From a virus (lineage: Duplodnaviria; Heunggongvirae; Uroviricota; Caudoviricetes): a stretch of 11,761 nucleotides of DNA. Every line of letters starts with the position of its first letter. The stretch's first letter is position 1. Both the position numbers and the translations under genes were made by a program. The stretch covers positions 1 through 11,761 of the IMG/VR virus record IMGVR_UViG_2585427768_000001, one strand, 5' to 3'. This document shows, piece after piece, positions 2,376 to 11,761 of the stretch. The notes under the pieces are model-generated. The model was not told where the DNA came from. It searched no databases and saw only the letters and a program-made list of their open reading frames with translations.

Positions 2376-2567
2376 TTAAAGACCTGCCGGGATTTCGTTA
2401 TTATCCTGGTGAATAACTTTATCGACCGGGTAACAGTTACCGGGAATTTTCTGTTCGGTTGCTGCAGTCACACACTCCTGCATTGTCCTGTGAACACTGA
2501 CTGCAATATCAACTGGCTCTCCGGAAACAAGAAAAACTGTCAGAACAAGTGCAAATGCTGTATTCAT
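2376..2567 (-). CDS. Hypothetical small protein (63 aa) with hydrophobic N-terminal segment; racC/ydaE-position gene
   Basis: ATG at 2567..2565 overlaps the TGA of the upstream gene (ATGA coupling), with AGGA 8 nt upstream. Product MNTAFALVLTVFLVSGEPVDIAVSVHRTMQECVTAATEQKIPGNCYPVDKVIHQDNNEIPAGL. The track's longer 2376..2621 ORF has a poorly spaced SD. Confidence 0.5.
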   Translation of the reverse strand: MNTAFALVLTVFLVSGEPVDIAVSVHRTMQECVTAATEQKIPGNCYPVDKVIHQDNNEIPAGL

Positions 2568-2752
2568 TGCCAGCATCCTTTTTGTATCGGACGTAAACGG
2601 GCCAGCATTGAAAGAATGCATATTTTATTTAATAGCTCCCGTTCGTGTTTTCTCTTGTTAATGGCATCTTCAGTAAATACAGGGTTACTGATATTGACAC
2701 CAATTTCAAAACAACCTTCAGACGTATTAACGTTTGGTAATAACGTTTCCAT
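2564..2752 (-). CDS. Hypothetical small protein (62 aa); kilR-position gene of the leftward early operon
   Basis: ATG at 2752..2750 preceded by GAGGA with 7-8 nt spacing on the minus strand; product METLLPNVNTSEGCFEIGVNISNPVFTEDAINKRKHERELLNKICILSMLARLRPIQKGCWQ; stop overlaps the start of the next gene. Confidence 0.5.
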   Translation of the reverse strand: METLLPNVNTSEGCFEIGVNISNPVFTEDAINKRKHERELLNKICILSMLARLRPIQKGCWQ

Positions 2753-3004
2753 TATCGCGTCCTCAACAATGAATTTTGTGATGCGGTGCCTGGTGCCTCC
2801 AGGTGACGTTAACCAGTTAACAATTAACGCCGGATACAGAGAATCCACCCATAACACTGTTTTTGGTTTTAACTGTTCCGCGTGCGCTCAGCCGCATTCA
2901 CCACATCACAAAATTCACTTTAAAAAGGGCGGCAGAGCAGTCACGGAGTAAAACTGATACCGCCAAACGTCACCAGAAAATTGATAACAGAGGGCGTTGC
3001 AGCG

Positions 3005-3314: not shown

Positions 3315-3590
3315 ATGTCGACTGAAAATGATGAAATCATTAACTCCCTGATACGCCAGATTAATAATTTTGATAAAGCATTGCAACATGCTGCGGCGCG
3401 TAGTGATATAACTCTTTTAGCAATTTCATTTCTTGCATCTGTTATGGATAAAAATGAAGTCGTACGACAGAGTCTTGTTGATTATATCGACTCGCTTCAA
3501 CCCGGCACTTTCAATCATGAGAGCTTCAATCATGAGAAAGAGCATGTTAAGTCTGTAATTAATTCTCTTATTTTGAATCAAAAGAATTAA
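3315..3590 (+). CDS. Hypothetical protein (91 aa), AT-rich gene in sieB position
   Basis: ATG 3315 preceded by AGGAGG 5 nt upstream; in frame with track ORF 3102..3590, whose upstream extension is GC-rich, Arg-rich and has no SD. Product MSTENDEIINSLIRQINNFDKALQHAAARSDITLLAISFLASVMDKNEVVRQSLVDYIDSLQPGTFNHESFNHEKEHVKSVINSLILNQKN. Contains a 15-bp in-frame tandem duplication (3510..3539). Confidence 0.6.
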   Translation: MSTENDEIINSLIRQINNFDKALQHAAARSDITLLAISFLASVMDKNEVVRQSLVDYIDSLQPGTFNHESFNHEKEHVKSVINSLILNQKN

Positions 3591-3900
3591 TGCTTTTTGT
3601 TGCAAAGTAATTTTCAAGGGGTTCTATTCGAATCCCTTTCTTTTTCATTAACAAGCCAAACCCCTTATCAATGATGTCCATTAGATCCAGGAAGTATTTT
3701 TCATGTAAATCCTGGTTATAAGAGAGCTGCTTCTCTTCGTACAGCCCGATAAAGGCTCGGCGTACGTTACCGGATATATTGTCGATGGTTTCTTTTTCTA
3801 CGGTACTCAGGTCAAGAGTCGCCAGTTGAGAGCGAACCACATTCGATGCCATTTCCTGGAATGGGACTGGTAAATCTTTAAATTCCATCGTCAACCTCAT
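3568..3900 (-). CDS. Hypothetical protein (110 aa); second gene of the leftward pL-like early operon
   Basis: Track ORF; ATG 3900..3898 overlaps the TGA of the upstream 77-aa gene (ATGA coupling); alternative start MEFKDLP 12 nt downstream. The 3' end overlaps the convergent 91-aa gene by 23 bp. Confidence 0.55.
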   Translation of the reverse strand: MRLTMEFKDLPVPFQEMASNVVRSQLATLDLSTVEKETIDNISGNVRRAFIGLYEEKQLSYNQDLHEKYFLDLMDIIDKGFGLLMKKKGIRIEPLENYFATKSINSFDSK

Positions 3901-4133
3901 CAGTCAGTGTTTCTGGTTAACCAGCGACGTGCGCCAGCTTCAGTTTTAAACGTTTTGCTTCTGGTATATGTCATCGCGGTAAACGTGCCGTCCTGGTTGG
4001 GAAACACGCCGCATACCAGAGATTCGTTGTTGCCAAGCTCGATAGTATCCATGCTGACCTCATTTCCCCTTAACGCCGGGGTAGCGGAACAAAAACCTGC
4101 TGCATAGTTATTAAAGTTGAACCCTGCCGTCAT
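3900..4133 (-). CDS. Hypothetical protein (77 aa); first gene downstream of the leftward pL-like promoter (ydaG/ydaF position)
   Basis: Track ORF; ATG 4133..4131 with GAGG 9 nt upstream on the minus strand; product MTAGFNFNNYAAGFCSATPALRGNEVSMDTIELGNNESLVCGVFPNQDGTFTAMTYTRSKTFKTEAGARRWLTRNTD. Confidence 0.5.
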   Translation of the reverse strand: MTAGFNFNNYAAGFCSATPALRGNEVSMDTIELGNNESLVCGVFPNQDGTFTAMTYTRSKTFKTEAGARRWLTRNTD

Positions 4134-4232
4134 GTTCTTACGCCTCGGGCTGGCTACTTAACCCCTGACCACTGCCTGGTAACTCGAGGTATTGCCCTGT
4201 ATTGTGTGGGACGGGATGGGTTGGTATGGGAA

Positions 4233-4276
4233 AACTATAGGAAATGCCTAATTACTTGTCAATAGGCTATGCCTAA
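4233..4276 (-). promoter_or_regulatory. Leftward pL-like sigma70 promoter with operator palindrome (OL-like)
   Basis: On the minus strand: -35 TTGACA (4262..4257), 17-nt spacer, -10 TATAGT (4239..4234). Palindrome TAGGCTATGCCTA at 4263..4275 and GCCTA half-site at 4246..4250. Segment 4255..4276 is the exact reverse complement of 4899..4920 on the other side of racR. Confidence 0.6.
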
Positions 4277-4370
4277 TAATTTGGGCGCAACCTAATAGGT
4301 GATGGTTTGTGGGAGAGGTAGTAGGAGTTAACTAACGGGAACTAGGAATTTCCCGTCGGACCATATAAGT

Positions 4371-4847
4371 TTAAGTTCCTGTCTTGGTGATGTTCTGGCT
4401 TTTCCGTTTTGATTCTTGATTTTTCAGATAGTTAGCTACCTTCATTTCCATTGCGGCAATGTAGGCGCGAACGTCATGATCAACCCAACTAGGCTCCGTA
4501 GCATTTCCAGATAAGATGAAAGCCACAATTGCTCTTTTTTCATCAGAGGCGGCTTGATAAAGGCTGTTTATGTCTAAAAGTTCACTTTTTGTATCTGAAG
4601 TGGATGGGGTTGGTATGGGGTATTCGTTAAGCCCCCAATGCTCTGGACCAACCACATCAGAAAAGAAACGCCATAGTTCTGGAAGTTTGTCTTTACTTAT
4701 CGAACCTTTCTTAATCCAGTCATGGATTGATGGTGGTTGGACTTTGAAATGACGTGCGATTTCCGCCTTTGATTTGACGGCTCCTGATGCAATTTTTTTG
4801 TTAATGGCCTGCTCTATCGCTCGGCCTAAGTCTTTACCACTAAGCAT
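4371..4847 (-). CDS. racR: Prophage repressor, RacR-like (158 aa, HTH)
   Basis: Track ORF MLSGKDLGRAIEQAINKK...; HTH-like segment KSKAEIARHFKVQPPSIHDWIKKG; divergent from the ydaS/ydaT-like genes, flanked by operator repeats. Size and organisation match Rac racR from memory, not verified by search. Confidence 0.7.
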   Translation of the reverse strand: MLSGKDLGRAIEQAINKKIASGAVKSKAEIARHFKVQPPSIHDWIKKGSISKDKLPELWRFFSDVVGPEHWGLNEYPIPTPSTSDTKSELLDINSLYQAASDEKRAIVAFILSGNATEPSWVDHDVRAYIAAMEMKVANYLKNQESKRKSQNITKTGT

Positions 4848-4898: not shown

Positions 4899-4944
4899 TA
4901 TTAGGCATAGCCTATTGACAATTTCATTAGGCTAAGCCTAATAT
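4899..4944 (+). promoter_or_regulatory. Rightward pR-like sigma70 promoter with two operator palindromes (OR-like)
   Basis: -35 TTGACA 4915..4920, 18-nt spacer, -10 TAATAT 4939..4944. Palindromes TAGGCATAGCCTA (4902..4914) and TAGGCTAAGCCTA (4928..4940), centres 26 bp apart, overlapping the -35 and spacer. Confidence 0.6.
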
Positions 4945-8585: not shown

Positions 8586-8796
8586 AAACGGTTTGCGGGA
8601 AAAGGAGAGTTAAGTAGAATTGCAGCGGGTGCTTGAGGCTATCTGTCTCAGGCATGAACACCAAAAGGCAGATAGAGAAAAGCCCCAGTTAACATTACGC
8701 GTCCGGCAAGACGCTTAACATTAATCTGAGGCCATATCTATGCTCTACACACGTAGGTTAGCCTCTTACGTGCCGAAAGGCAAGGAGAAGCAGGCT

Positions 8797-8952
8797 ATGA
8801 AGCAGCAAAAGGCGATGCTAATCGCCCTGATCGTCATCTGTTTAACCGTCATTGTGACGGCACTGGTAACGAGGAAAGACCTCTGCGAGGTACGAATCCG
8901 AACCGGCCAGACGGAGGTCGCTGTCTTCACAGCTTACGAACCTGAGGAGTAA
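8797..8952 (+). CDS. hok: Hok/Gef-family type I toxin (51 aa), HokD/RelF-like
   Basis: Product MKQQKAMLIALIVICLTVIVTALVTRKDLCEVRIRTGQTEVAVFTAYEPEE matches the Hok family signature; AAGGAG 9 nt upstream of ATG 8797. An in-frame upstream ATG at 8740 with its own GAGG SD gives the track's 70-aa form. Confidence 0.85.
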   Translation: MKQQKAMLIALIVICLTVIVTALVTRKDLCEVRIRTGQTEVAVFTAYEPEE

Positions 8953-9196: not shown

Positions 9197-9556
9197 ATGG
9201 CACTCACTGAATTCGGTAAGGCCGTTAGAAAAGCGAGGATCGATACTGACAGTACTCTTCTGACTATGTCTCAAGAACTGGGCACTACGCCAGCGTTTCT
9301 TAGCGGTTTAGAAACTGGTAGCAAAAAAATACCTCTGAAGTGGGTTAAGAAGATTGATTCTTACTTCAAGGCCAAAGGTGTAGAAATTGAAGGGTTACAG
9401 GAGCTAGCGGCAGTTGCGAATGACTCAGTTCCAGTAAACGGTTTGTCTCAGCAACAGAAAATGCTTGTAGCGGGATTCGCTAAGTCGCAGTTTACGCCGG
9501 AACAGCTAAAGAGTTTTGCAGATTTATTGCAAAAGATTAATAACAATGAGGGGTAA
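9197..9556 (+). CDS. XRE-family helix-turn-helix transcriptional regulator (119 aa)
   Basis: ATG 9197 with GAGG 8 nt upstream; N-terminal HTH_3-like segment LTEFGKAVRKARIDTDSTLLTMSQELGTTPAFLSGLETG followed by an extension of about 60 aa. Confidence 0.75.
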   Translation: MALTEFGKAVRKARIDTDSTLLTMSQELGTTPAFLSGLETGSKKIPLKWVKKIDSYFKAKGVEIEGLQELAAVANDSVPVNGLSQQQKMLVAGFAKSQFTPEQLKSFADLLQKINNNEG

Positions 9557-9558
9557 TT

Positions 9559-10035
9559 ATGTATCAAATGAGAGGTAACAGGGTGTCACCGATGCAAGAA
9601 GAAGAAATAGCCTACAGAGCTATAAACTTCTGTAATGCTATTGGTCTTACAGCCTCAAAGCGCAAAAGAAAGCGTTATGATATGTTCTTTGAAAGCCTGT
9701 CAATTTATGGGGTTACTCTTGACGTCAGGACCGACAAAGAGTGGGAGGCTCTGACGTATGATCTAACTATCGGACATTGTGACCCCGCTTCTCTAACAAT
9801 TACGGTTCCCAATAAAATATATGTGAATGCTTGCCTTGGGGAAGAGCATGCACTTGCTGTTATCTTCCACGAGCTAGGTCATTTGCTTCTTGGACACAAA
9901 GCAGTTTTACACTTTTCAGTTAAAGAACCTACTCGTATTGAGGATGCAGAATGGCAGGCAGATACATTTGCGGATATCGTACTGGAAACAATTGGCGTGA
10001 GAACACAACAGATGTCGTTCGATTTTTATATGTAA
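9559..10035 (+). CDS. ImmA/IrrE-family zinc metallopeptidase (158 aa; HExxH)
   Basis: ATG 9559 is 2 nt after the HTH gene stop, with GAGGGG 5 nt upstream; HExxH motif in HELGHLLLGH plus a downstream E/D-rich segment, typical of the ImmA/IrrE family. Confidence 0.75.
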   Translation: MYQMRGNRVSPMQEEEIAYRAINFCNAIGLTASKRKRKRYDMFFESLSIYGVTLDVRTDKEWEALTYDLTIGHCDPASLTITVPNKIYVNACLGEEHALAVIFHELGHLLLGHKAVLHFSVKEPTRIEDAEWQADTFADIVLETIGVRTQQMSFDFYM

Positions 10036-10747: not shown

Positions 10748-11291
10748 GTGCGGGTATTACTTCGACCTGTTCTGGTACCGGAACTCGGGCTGGTGATCGT
10801 TAAGCCGGGCCGTGAATCCATGCCGGTATTCCACAATACCCGGGTACTGGTGGAGCCGGAACCGAAAAGCATGCGTAATCTGTCGTCCGGGGTCGTTCCT
10901 GCCGTTCGCCAGCCGCTGGCGGAGGATAAATCATTACTGCCATTTTTCAGCGACGAACGAGTGATTCGTGCTGCTGGTGGCGCTGGCGCATTGTCTGACT
11001 GGTTACTGCGCCATGTTAAATCCTGCCAGTGGCCACACGGCGATTATCACCACAGTGAAACCGTCATTCACCGTTATGGTACCGGCGCAATGGTGTTGTG
11101 CTGGCACTGCGACAACCAGCTGCGCGACCAGACCTCCGAATCACTCGGGCAACTTGCTCACCAAAACCTGTCTGCATGGATGATTGACGTCATACGCCAT
11201 GCAATGAATGGCTCGCAGGAACGGGAATTATCGCTGGCTGAATTATCCTGGTGGGCGGTCCGCAATCAGGTGGCGGACGCGCTACCGGAAG
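10748..11291 (+). pseudogene. DUF968-like (YdfU-like) Cys/His-rich protein gene, 3' part removed by IS insertion
   Basis: GTG 10748 with GGAGG 4 nt upstream, overlapping the upstream stop; Cys/His motif CQWPHGDYHH...CWHCDNQ; the frame runs into the IS terminal repeat at 11292, so the track ORF tail after ...ADALPEV is IS-derived. Confidence 0.55.

Positions 11292-11761
<470 letters not shown>

What the first reader, a model, noticed from the sequence alone, without database searches (positions are those of the whole stretch)
3568..4133. Two unknown genes as the first cargo of the pL-like leftward operon
The 77-aa and 110-aa ORFs are ATGA-coupled and lie immediately downstream of the leftward repressor-controlled promoter, where lambdoid phages place immediate-early functions such as antiterminators, host-takeover or anti-defence genes. 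Neither protein resembles one I recognise, and both are larger than the short ydaG/ydaF ORFs I recall at this position in K-12 Rac.
Basis: inference. Interest (0 to 1): 0.45.

Follow-up and report, generated by a model that had tools for sequence, protein, structure and literature searches.

The report
Two ordinary early prophage genes, over-extended

Summary
The ORFs exist at the stated coordinates, downstream of a leftward promoter covered by RacR-type operators. Several details are wrong.

- **ORF 1 (77 aa).** Residues 28-76 are 88% identical to K-12 YdfA and 84% identical to YdaF (Pfam DUF1391, 96 bits). The true start is the ATG at 4052, giving 50 aa. The 27 extra codons are a leader uORF that a 1-nt C-run difference fuses in frame in this allele. 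They show no coding constraint (pN/pS 0.78, against 0.18 for the core).
- **ORF 2 (110 aa).** It really starts at 3888, giving 106 aa (MEFKDLP…). It belongs to a narrow enterobacterial phage family (PHROG 6937) with a conserved ~52-aa N-terminal helical hairpin and swapped C-termini. It has no Pfam, NCBIfam, PADLOC or fold match.
- **Junction.** The ORFs meet as TGATG, not ATGA. The real genes are 11 nt apart with a GAGG Shine-Dalgarno between them.
- **Operon.** The operon continues into DicF, dicB and a ydfD-like gene, so this is a dicBF-type operon under RacR control. The same layout occurs in the viable phage mEp460 and in hundreds of E. coli genomes.
- **Function.** I found no arginine-rich motif and no nut site. 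Published induction of K-12 ydfABC is not toxic. Function remains unknown.

Low novelty.

The parts
4234..4262 (-). pL-like sigma-70 promoter (TTGACA-17-TATAGT) driving the leftward early operon
   Evidence: Consensus scan, 11 of 12 matches. The K-12 Rac counterpart region aligns. K-12 ydaF and ydaG rise about 40-fold when racR expression falls (PMC6765115).
4234..4278 (.). Two RacR-type operator copies (4234-4253 and 4259-4278; TTAGGC-N4-GCCTAA cores) overlapping the -10 and -35 hexamers of pL
   Evidence: Repeat family D1, and the 23-nt perfect inverted copy I2 shared with the pR region at 4899-4921.
4053..4133 (-). 27-codon leader uORF (MTAGFNFNNYAAGFCSATPALRGNEVS), fused in frame to the DUF1391 gene in this allele. 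Probably not part of the functional protein.
   Evidence: In other RacR-type leaders the same ATG opens an 18-20-codon uORF that stops at TAA in CGGCGTTAAGGGG. Fusion or separation depends on a CCC/CCCC run. The extension is absent or stopped in DicA-type leaders and in K-12. pN/pS is 0.78 against off-frame controls of 0.65 and 1.84.
3900..4052 (-). DUF1391 gene (YdfA/YdaF orthologue), 50 aa plus stop, preceded by a conserved translation-initiation region CCGGCGTTAAGGGGAAATGAGGTCAGC-ATG
   Evidence: Pfam PF07151, 96.1 bits against a cut-off of 27.3, matching residues 29-75 of the 77-aa ORF. 88% identity to YdfA and 84% to YdaF from their first residue. PGAP aa in the 99.9% identical E7476. pN/pS 0.18. 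AF2 model of four strands plus a helix, pLDDT 90.5.
3889..3899 (-). 11-nt intergenic spacer TGAGGTTGACG carrying the GAGG Shine-Dalgarno of the second gene
   Evidence: This exact spacer is present in 72 of 84 junctions examined.
3568..3888 (-). 106-aa phage protein (MEFKDLP…) with a conserved N-terminal helical hairpin of about 52 aa and a variable C-terminal part
   Evidence: PHROG 6937 at E 1.2e-65, with all five PHROG matches starting at residue 5 of the 110-aa ORF. Family alignments. Homologues in other contexts have no in-frame upstream ATG. AF2 helices 8-23 and 32-55 at pLDDT about 87. pN/pS 0.47 and 0.34.
3315..3590 (+). Convergent gene on the opposite strand. Likely 91 aa from ATG 3315 with AGGAGG upstream; PGAP aa from 3153. 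It overlaps the 3' end of the 106-aa gene by 23 nt and sits where sieB sits in K-12 Rac.
   Evidence: No Pfam, NCBIfam or PADLOC match.
3616..3638 (+). Terminator-like hairpin with a T-run for the convergent + strand gene, embedded in the coding sequence of the 106-aa gene. It has no U-tract on the - strand.
2927..2978 (-). DicF sRNA, downstream in the same leftward transcription unit
   Evidence: Rfam RF00039, 76.7 bits against a gathering score of 48, full length.
2564..2752 (-). dicB, followed by a ydfD-like DUF1482 gene at 2376-2567 and a RecE-like exonuclease gene
   Evidence: NCBIfam CellDivInhibDicB, 130 bits against a cut-off of 100. PGAP annotation of E7476.
4371..4847 (-). racR repressor gene
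   Evidence: NCBIfam equivalog TransRepsrRacR, 246 bits against a cut-off of 200.

Best explanation
**What it is (shown).** The interval holds the two promoter-proximal protein genes of a RacR-repressed, dicBF-type early-left operon in a Rac/Qin-hybrid lambdoid prophage.
- Gene 1 is the orthologue of K-12 YdfA/YdaF (DUF1391). It is 50 aa and folds as a compact four-strand-plus-helix domain. The 27-codon N-terminal extension is a leader uORF that happens to be fused in frame in this allele.
- Gene 2 is a 106-aa member of a narrow enterobacterial phage family. The family has a constant N-terminal helical hairpin of about 52 aa and mosaic, exchangeable C-termini.

**How it is expressed (shown for the sequence features; the transcript behaviour is inferred from K-12).** RacR operators cover the promoter, so both genes should be silent in the lysogen. 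On derepression or infection they would be made first. They form the 5' part of a polycistronic transcript that runs on, antisense through a convergent moron gene, into DicF, dicB, a ydfD-like gene and the recombination genes.

**What they do (inferred, about 30% confidence).** Both are non-toxic accessory proteins that act by binding other macromolecules, most likely host or rival-phage proteins, as their operon mates DicB and KilR do. They are not N-type antiterminators. They work independently of each other, because each gene occurs without the other in other phages.
For: **Identity of gene 1**
- Pfam DUF1391, 96 bits.
- 84-88% identity to YdaF and YdfA, starting from their Met1.
- PGAP aa in a 99.9% identical genome.
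- The start context is conserved across 84 loci while the upstream frame varies.
- pN/pS is 0.18 for the core and 0.78 for the extension.

**Identity of gene 2**
- PHROG 6937, E 1e-65, aligned from residue 5.
- 230 clusters at 90% identity, all 'hypothetical' and almost all from Escherichia, with one Salmonella cluster among the 120 rows listed.
- 43 representatives among 1.84 billion proteins.
- Conserved N-terminus with variable C-termini.

**Operon**
- Promoter and operators, RacR, DicF, DicB.
- No leftward intrinsic terminator was found between 5100 and 2500.
- The viable phage mEp460 has the same order: repressor, DUF1391, an 11-nt gap, the N-domain gene, a convergent gene, then dicB.
- In Serratia phage OS31, DUF1391 is the first gene after cI.

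**Literature**
- The ydfABC-dicF transcript is the DicF precursor (PMC10448788).
- ydaF and ydaG rise about 40-fold when racR expression falls (PMC6765115).
- Inducing ydfABC without dicF and dicB does not inhibit growth (PMC5069750).

**Independence of the two genes**
- PPompW_EH2246 and TL-2011c carry the N-domain gene with no DUF1391 in the regions fetched.
- Bas97, OS31 and Nafs113 carry DUF1391 without it.
Against: - No experiment or homology assigns a molecular function to either protein.
- 'Acts by binding proteins' rests on size, lack of catalytic motifs, operon company and non-toxicity. It is not directly supported.
- The non-toxicity data are for K-12 YdfA with YdfB and YdfC, not for the 106-aa protein.
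- The upstream ATG at 4133 has a GAGG 9 nt before it, and the fused frame is the commonest RacR-type allele. A 77-aa isoform cannot be excluded.
Confidence: 0.8

Rival explanations
1. One reading: two novel proteins of 77 and 110 aa, ATGA-coupled, possibly an N-like antiterminator or a host-takeover or anti-defence pair.
For: - The position directly after the repressor-controlled leftward promoter is right.
- Neither protein has a known function.
- DUF1391 keeps the first position after the repressor in three different immunity types: RacR, DicA/C2 and a LexA-like cI.
Against: - ORF 1 is YdaF/YdfA.
- Both starts are over-extended.
- The junction is TGATG.
- There is no arginine-rich motif. The N-termini are MDTIELGNNES and MEFKDLPVPFQ.
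- BoxA-like matches number 8 against 8.5 expected, and none is in the leader. The leader is not structured.
- DUF1391 also occurs in a 76-kb Pantoea phage, inside a run of small early-type genes, and as the second gene after a helicase in Bas97.
- There are no PADLOC hits.
Confidence: 0.1
2. DUF1391 is a small AP2/ERF-like (three-strand-plus-helix) DNA-binding regulator and acts as an extra early transcription or recombination-directionality factor.
For: - Several HNH-endonuclease hits appear in BFVD. That these carry AP2 domains is from my own knowledge.
- The KTFKTEAGARRWL segment resembles the G-F-T-x-EEA-x-x-Y helix start of AP2.
Against: - Profile-profile comparison with an AP2 alignment gives 3.7% probability.
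- A Pfam scan at E up to 1 lists no AP2 or arm-binding family.
- The strand segments named by the AF2 secondary-structure assignment (ESLVCGVF, FTAM, SKTF) contain a single lysine and none of the Arg or Trp residues that contact DNA in AP2 (read from the sequence). The protein has 6 acidic and 6 basic residues.
Confidence: 0.1
3. The 77-aa fused form is a real, functional long isoform of DUF1391 and is made alongside the 50-aa form.
For: - ATG 4133 has a GAGG 9 nt upstream.
- The fused 76/77-aa frame is the commonest RacR-type leader allele among the IMG/VR loci.
- PHROG 751 (70 profile positions) aligns from residue 10 of the 77-aa ORF.
Against: - One base in a C-run switches between the fused form and a separate 18-20-aa uORF.
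- K-12 Rac, Qin, DicA-type leaders and the distant phages lack the extension.
- The peptide sequence of the extension changes through frameshifting indels while the DNA stays similar. pN/pS is 0.78.
- The PHROG and long database entries can simply reflect longest-ORF gene calling.
Confidence: 0.15
4. The 106-aa protein and the convergent opposite-strand gene form a toxin/immunity-like or exclusion pair. The variable C-terminus would be matched to a lysogen-expressed partner.
For: - Several C-terminal types are each followed by a different small convergent gene that overlaps their 3' end: -23 nt here, -41, -11 and 0 nt elsewhere.
- The same pattern occurs in mEp460 and PPompW_EH2246.
- The convergent gene sits where the exclusion gene sieB sits in K-12 Rac.
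Against: - Co-variation is not strict. The 106/124-aa C-terminal type occurs with at least three downstream contexts, including none.
- Linkage within a mosaic module explains the pattern.
- There is no PADLOC or Pfam support.
Confidence: 0.07

Closest known systems
E. coli K-12 YdfA (Qin prophage) and YdaF (Rac prophage), Pfam DUF1391 (PF07151)
   Same: 84-88% identity over 49 residues, the same start, the same length (50 aa against 51), and the same promoter-proximal place in a repressor-controlled leftward operon. Function is unknown in all cases.
   Different: In this allele the leader uORF is fused in frame, which creates a 77-aa ORF. In K-12 Rac, ydaG is inserted between the shared initiation region and ydaF.
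The dicBF operon of Qin (ydfA-ydfB-ydfC-dicF-dicB-ydfD)
   Same: The same gene order at both ends: DUF1391 first, then DicF, dicB and a ydfD-like gene. In K-12 the long transcript is the DicF precursor (PMC10448788).
   Different: The repressor is RacR rather than DicA. ydfB and ydfC are replaced by the unrelated 106-aa gene plus a convergent opposite-strand gene.
PHROG 6937, with 1363, 2151 and 9419 sharing only the N-terminal domain
   Same: Full-length match to PHROG 6937 (E 1.2e-65). The N-terminal 55-65 residues also match the other three.
   Different: All of these are 'unknown function'. The C-terminal parts are unrelated between the families, so the gene is mosaic.
Lambda N, the first gene of pL
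   Same: Position only: the first gene after the leftward early promoter.
   Different: No arginine-rich motif, no boxA/boxB in the leader, and a folded beta/alpha domain instead of a disordered basic protein.
K-12 YdaG, YdfB and YdfC
   Same: Small genes in the equivalent slot between the first gene and the sRNA/division-inhibitor genes.
   Different: No detectable sequence similarity to the 106-aa protein (best BLASTP E values above 0.1).

Membership tests
DUF1391 / YdfA-YdaF family (PF07151) | Match to the Pfam model above its gathering score | tested here: met
   96.1 bits against 27.3, covering profile positions 1-47 of 48.
DUF1391 / YdfA-YdaF family (PF07151) | Close identity to the named K-12 members over their whole length, from their start codon | tested here: met
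   88% to YdfA residues 1-49 and 84% to YdaF residues 1-49, aligned to residues 28-76 of the 77-aa ORF.
DUF1391 / YdfA-YdaF family (PF07151) | A protein of about 50 aa | tested here: met
   Met with the start at 4052 (50 aa): conserved start context, PGAP call and pN/pS. The 77-aa ORF as drawn does not fit.
dicBF-type operon | DicF sRNA and dicB downstream on the same strand, under a CI-like repressor | tested here: met
   DicF at 76.7 bits, DicB at 130 bits, RacR with operators over the promoter. That they form a single transcript is inferred from K-12 (PMC10448788), not shown here.
PHROG 6937 (N-terminal hairpin phage protein family) | Full-length profile match | tested here: met
   E 1.2e-65, residues 5-110 aligned to profile positions 1-106 of 124.
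Lambda N-type antiterminators | An N-terminal arginine-rich RNA-binding motif | tested here: not met
   The N-termini are MDTIELGNNES and MEFKDLPVPFQ. DUF1391 has 6 basic and 6 acidic residues (read from the sequence).
Lambda N-type antiterminators | A nut site (boxA plus a boxB hairpin) in the early leader | tested here: not met
   BoxA-like matches number 8 against 8.5 expected, with none in 4053-4228. The leader fold z-score is +1.29.
AP2/ERF-like DNA-binding domains | A three-stranded sheet packed on a helix with significant structural similarity | tested here: inconclusive
AP2/ERF-like DNA-binding domains | Profile-level sequence homology and conserved Arg/Trp DNA contacts on the sheet | tested here: not met
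   hhalign probability 3.7%. The predicted strand segments contain one lysine and no Arg or Trp (read from the sequence and the secondary-structure assignment).
YdaG / YdfB / YdfC | Sequence similarity to the 106-aa protein | tested here: not met
   BLASTP with word size 2 found nothing better than E 0.18, and that hit is for another ORF.
Known anti-phage defence components (PADLOC) | A profile match | tested here: not met
   No family at E up to 0.1 for either protein or their neighbours.

The most novel reading that the evidence does not exclude
The N-terminal-hairpin family could be a set of polymorphic immediate-early effectors. A constant ~52-aa adaptor domain would be joined to rapidly exchanged C-terminal specificity modules. 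With DUF1391, it would be used by N-less Rac/Qin/mEp460-type lambdoid phages to neutralise host or resident-prophage functions, for example as counter-defence, in the first minutes after derepression. DUF1391's conserved first position across three immunity types would then reflect a need to be made first.
Probability: 0.12. Interest if true: 0.55.

Novelty: already known. Interest (0 to 1): 0.17.

Why it matters
- **Practical value.** The 77-aa and 110-aa ORFs should be annotated as 50 aa and 106 aa. The first one is YdfA/YdaF. A spurious 'head-DNA stabilization protein D' label seen on this gene in some phage records should not be propagated.
- **Biological point.** DUF1391 and the hairpin family are among the commonest prophage early genes of E. 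coli. The DUF1391 allele is in at least 28% of complete genomes and the hairpin N-domain in 27%. They head the operon that makes DicF and DicB, yet nobody knows what they do.
- **A usable system.** The viable phage mEp460 carries the same arrangement, which makes genetic tests straightforward.
- **Limits.** Nothing found here points to a new kind of mechanism.

Tried and rejected
1. **N-like antiterminator or nut site.** A boxA pattern search and a leader fold were both negative. Neither protein has an arginine-rich motif.
2. **Fold-based function for the 106-aa protein.** The AF2 model has mean pLDDT 69.5. Foldseek against PDB gave a best E of 2.6, which is uninformative.
4. **AP2-domain homology.** hhalign gave 3.7% probability, so I rejected it as a membership claim.
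5. **PDB sequence search with the DUF1391 profile.** It returned only a 19-residue chance match to a phage head-decoration protein.
6. **Family libraries for the 106-aa protein.** Pfam on 20 diverse family members, including the long C-terminal variants, found nothing significant. NCBIfam and PADLOC found nothing.
7. **Homology of the 106-aa protein to YdaG, YdfB or YdfC.** None.
8. **Obligate DUF1391/hairpin partnership.** Rejected, because each gene occurs without the other.
9. **Toxin/immunity reading of the 106-aa gene and the convergent gene.** Co-variation is not strict.
10. **Domain fusions of DUF1391.** The 120 best rows of the wider profile search are all 50-103 aa and carry no second Pfam domain. 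The other 877 hits were not listed.
11. **Literature.** Searches by peptide strings found nothing. Searches by gene name found only statements that the function is unknown.

Full report
**Context.**
- The window is a Rac-like lambdoid prophage of E. coli.
- A 1.1-kb stretch around the finding is 99.9% identical to E. coli E7476 and other strains.
- In E7476 the prophage lies next to ompW. PGAP annotates, leftward from racR, a 50-aa 'DUF1391 family protein', a 106-aa hypothetical protein, a convergent hypothetical gene, dicB, a DUF1482 gene, an exonuclease, an excisionase and an integrase.
- In window coordinates RacR is at 4371-4847 (NCBIfam equivalog, 246 bits).
- Rfam finds DicF at 2978-2927 on the minus strand (76.7 bits). 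NCBIfam finds DicB at 2564-2752.
- The leftward operon is therefore a Qin-type dicBF operon placed under Rac-type immunity.

**The observation.**
- The two ORFs exist as listed.
- A near-consensus promoter (TTGACA-17-TATAGT, 4262->4234) lies upstream.
- It is overlapped by two copies of a TTAGGC-N4-GCCTAA palindrome. The same palindrome recurs at the rightward promoter, including a 23-nt perfect inverted copy that contains the -35 hexamer. 'Repressor-controlled leftward promoter' is therefore well founded.
- In K-12, ydaF and ydaG rise about 40-fold when racR expression falls (PMC6765115).
- The stated ATGA overlap is wrong. The sequence is …GAC TGA TGAGGTTGACG ATG GAA…, so the long ORFs share one base (TGATG).

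**ORF 1 is YdfA/YdaF with an over-extended start.**
- Pfam DUF1391 matches residues 29-75 at 96 bits.
- Residues 28-76 are 88% identical to Qin YdfA and 84% identical to Rac YdaF, aligned from their first methionine.
- Upstream of that methionine lies a conserved initiation region, CCGGCGTTAAGGGGAAATGAGGTCAGC-ATG. It is present in all leader types across 80 IMG/VR loci plus K-12.
- The in-frame upstream sequence is variable. It is absent or stopped in DicA-type leaders.
- In RacR-type leaders the ATG at 4133 opens one of two things: a separate 18-20-codon uORF that ends at the TAA inside CGGCGTTAAGGGG, or a 76/77-aa fusion. Which one occurs depends on a CCC versus CCCC run.
- K-12 Rac has the separate uORF. 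There, ydaG is inserted directly after the shared initiation region.
- Nei-Gojobori counts give pN/pS 0.18 for the 49-codon core, against off-frame controls of about 1.9-2.0. The 27-codon extension gives 0.78, against controls of 0.65 and 1.84.
- The functional product is therefore most likely 50 aa. A minor long isoform cannot be excluded.

**ORF 2 is a 106-aa member of a narrow phage family.**
- All five PHROG matches start at residue 5 of the 110-aa ORF.
- The 11-nt spacer TGAGGTTGACG, with its GAGG, is invariant in 72 of 84 junctions.
- In other contexts (Stx2 phage TL-2011c and PPompW_EH2246) the MEFKDLP/MQFKDLP start follows a GGAGG/GAGG and has no in-frame upstream ATG.
- The family is small. 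There are 230 clusters at 90% identity, all unnamed, and 43 representatives among 1.84 billion proteins.
- The first ~52 residues are conserved: MEFKDLP..IQ.IAA..L…K..IDN..RNVR.AF.GLY. The C-terminal parts fall into unrelated types of 106 to 212 aa.
- Both halves show purifying selection (pN/pS 0.47 and 0.34).
- AF2 predicts a helical hairpin (helices 8-23 and 32-55, pLDDT about 87) and a less confident third helix.
- I found no structural neighbour and no Pfam, NCBIfam or PADLOC match, even for the long variants.
- It is not related to YdaG, YdfB or YdfC.

**DUF1391 structure.**
- AF2 gives a confident four-strand-plus-helix domain (pLDDT 90.5).
- A profile-profile comparison with AP2 sequences gives 3.7% probability.
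- The predicted strand segments carry none of the Arg or Trp residues that AP2 uses for DNA contact.
- I treat the AP2 resemblance as an untested lead, not as membership.

**Distribution and context.**
- The 106-aa gene is present at 80% coverage or more in 724 of 5426 complete E. coli genomes. Its N-terminal part is in 1442.
- This DUF1391 allele is in at least 1537 genomes, with up to four copies per genome.
- The viable lambdoid phage mEp460 has the same order: repressor, DUF1391, an 11-nt gap, the hairpin gene, a convergent gene, dicB, then the exonuclease.
- In Serratia phage OS31, DUF1391 is the first gene after a LexA-like cI.
- In Bas97 it follows a helicase gene. In the 76-kb Pantoea phage Nafs113 it sits among small early-type genes.
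- The two genes are separable.

**Mechanism.**
- Shown: the coding status, the gene boundaries, the promoter and operators, and the operon company.
- Taken from the literature on the K-12 homologues:
  - The long transcript starting upstream of ydfA is the DicF precursor (PMC10448788).
  - Inducing ydfABC without dicF and dicB is not growth-inhibitory (PMC5069750).
  - The functions are unknown as of 2023-2024.
- Inferred: both are non-toxic, immediate-early accessory proteins that work by binding other macromolecules.
- There is no arginine-rich motif, no nut-like element and no defence-system match.
- My confidence in the identity and architecture is high. My confidence in the functional class is about 0.3.

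**Verdict.** This is an ordinary, widespread and already catalogued gene pair whose coordinates and description needed correction. Function is unknown but not anomalous. Interest is low.

Noticed in passing
window 4053-4133 (-), and loci L004-L083: In RacR-type leaders, a leader uORF (ATGACGGC…) is switched between a separate 18-20-codon uORF and an in-frame fusion to DUF1391. The separate form ends at the TAA inside the main gene's initiation region. The switch is the length of a C-run (CCC, CCCC, or longer). It could be a mutational on/off or coupling switch, or just noise.
   Followed up: partly
window 3315-3590 (+), with a terminator-like hairpin at 3616-3638 (+): A convergent opposite-strand gene overlaps the 3' end of the 106-aa gene by 23 nt. 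It is likely 91 aa with a strong AGGAGG; PGAP aa. It sits where sieB sits in K-12 Rac and has no family match. Different small convergent genes occupy this spot in related prophages, in mEp460 and in PPompW phages. It may be a lysogen-expressed moron transcribed antisense to the early operon.
   Followed up: partly
window 2927-2978 (-), 2564-2752 (-) and 2376-2567 (-): DicF sRNA, dicB and a ydfD-like DUF1482 gene lie downstream. The prophage therefore combines Rac-type immunity (RacR, YdaS-like, YdaT-like) with the Qin-type dicBF cargo.
   Followed up: yes
window 8627-8802 (+) and 8740-8952 (+): A hok/sok type I toxin-antitoxin locus sits in the rightward region. Rfam sok scores 117 bits and Pfam Hok/Gef E 2.9e-23; PGAP calls it hokD in E7476.
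   Followed up: partly
window 9197-9556 (+) and 9559-10035 (+): An adjacent pair with a 2-nt gap: a 119-aa protein that PGAP labels helix-turn-helix, and a 158-aa IrrE/ImmA-like M78 metallopeptidase (HELGH motif; Pfam Peptidase_M78, 24.6 bits). This looks like an ImmR/ImmA-style antirepressor module or a defence-associated pair inside the prophage.
   Followed up: partly
window 11334-11744 (-): A fragment of an rve-type (IS3-family-like) transposase abuts or interrupts the 234-aa ORF at 10748-11452. E7476 instead has an IS1 upstream of a DUF6645 pseudogene in the same region, so different IS insertions have hit this region in different strains.
   Followed up: no
window 4218-4230 and 4607-4619: A perfect 13-nt direct repeat, GGGTTGGTATGGG, occurs twice: once at the predicted start of the leftward transcript and once inside racR. 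It is not conserved in K-12 Rac. Its significance is unknown and it may be chance.
   Followed up: no
phage records ON470580, PV340562, ON470583 and others: Some deposited phage genomes label the DUF1391 gene 'head-DNA stabilization protein D'. This probably comes from a 19-residue chance similarity to a phage head-decoration protein (PDB 1td0, E 0.06) and looks like an annotation error.
   Followed up: partly
L084 (phage TL-2011c) 4001-4396, and 31 Stx2a-converting phage records: Hairpin-family genes about 40% identical over the N-terminal 65 aa occur in inducible Stx2a phages, including the O104:H4 outbreak phage phiON-2011. In TL-2011c, the one context examined, the gene lies after the recombination genes and a DUF2303 gene, not after DUF1391.
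   Followed up: partly
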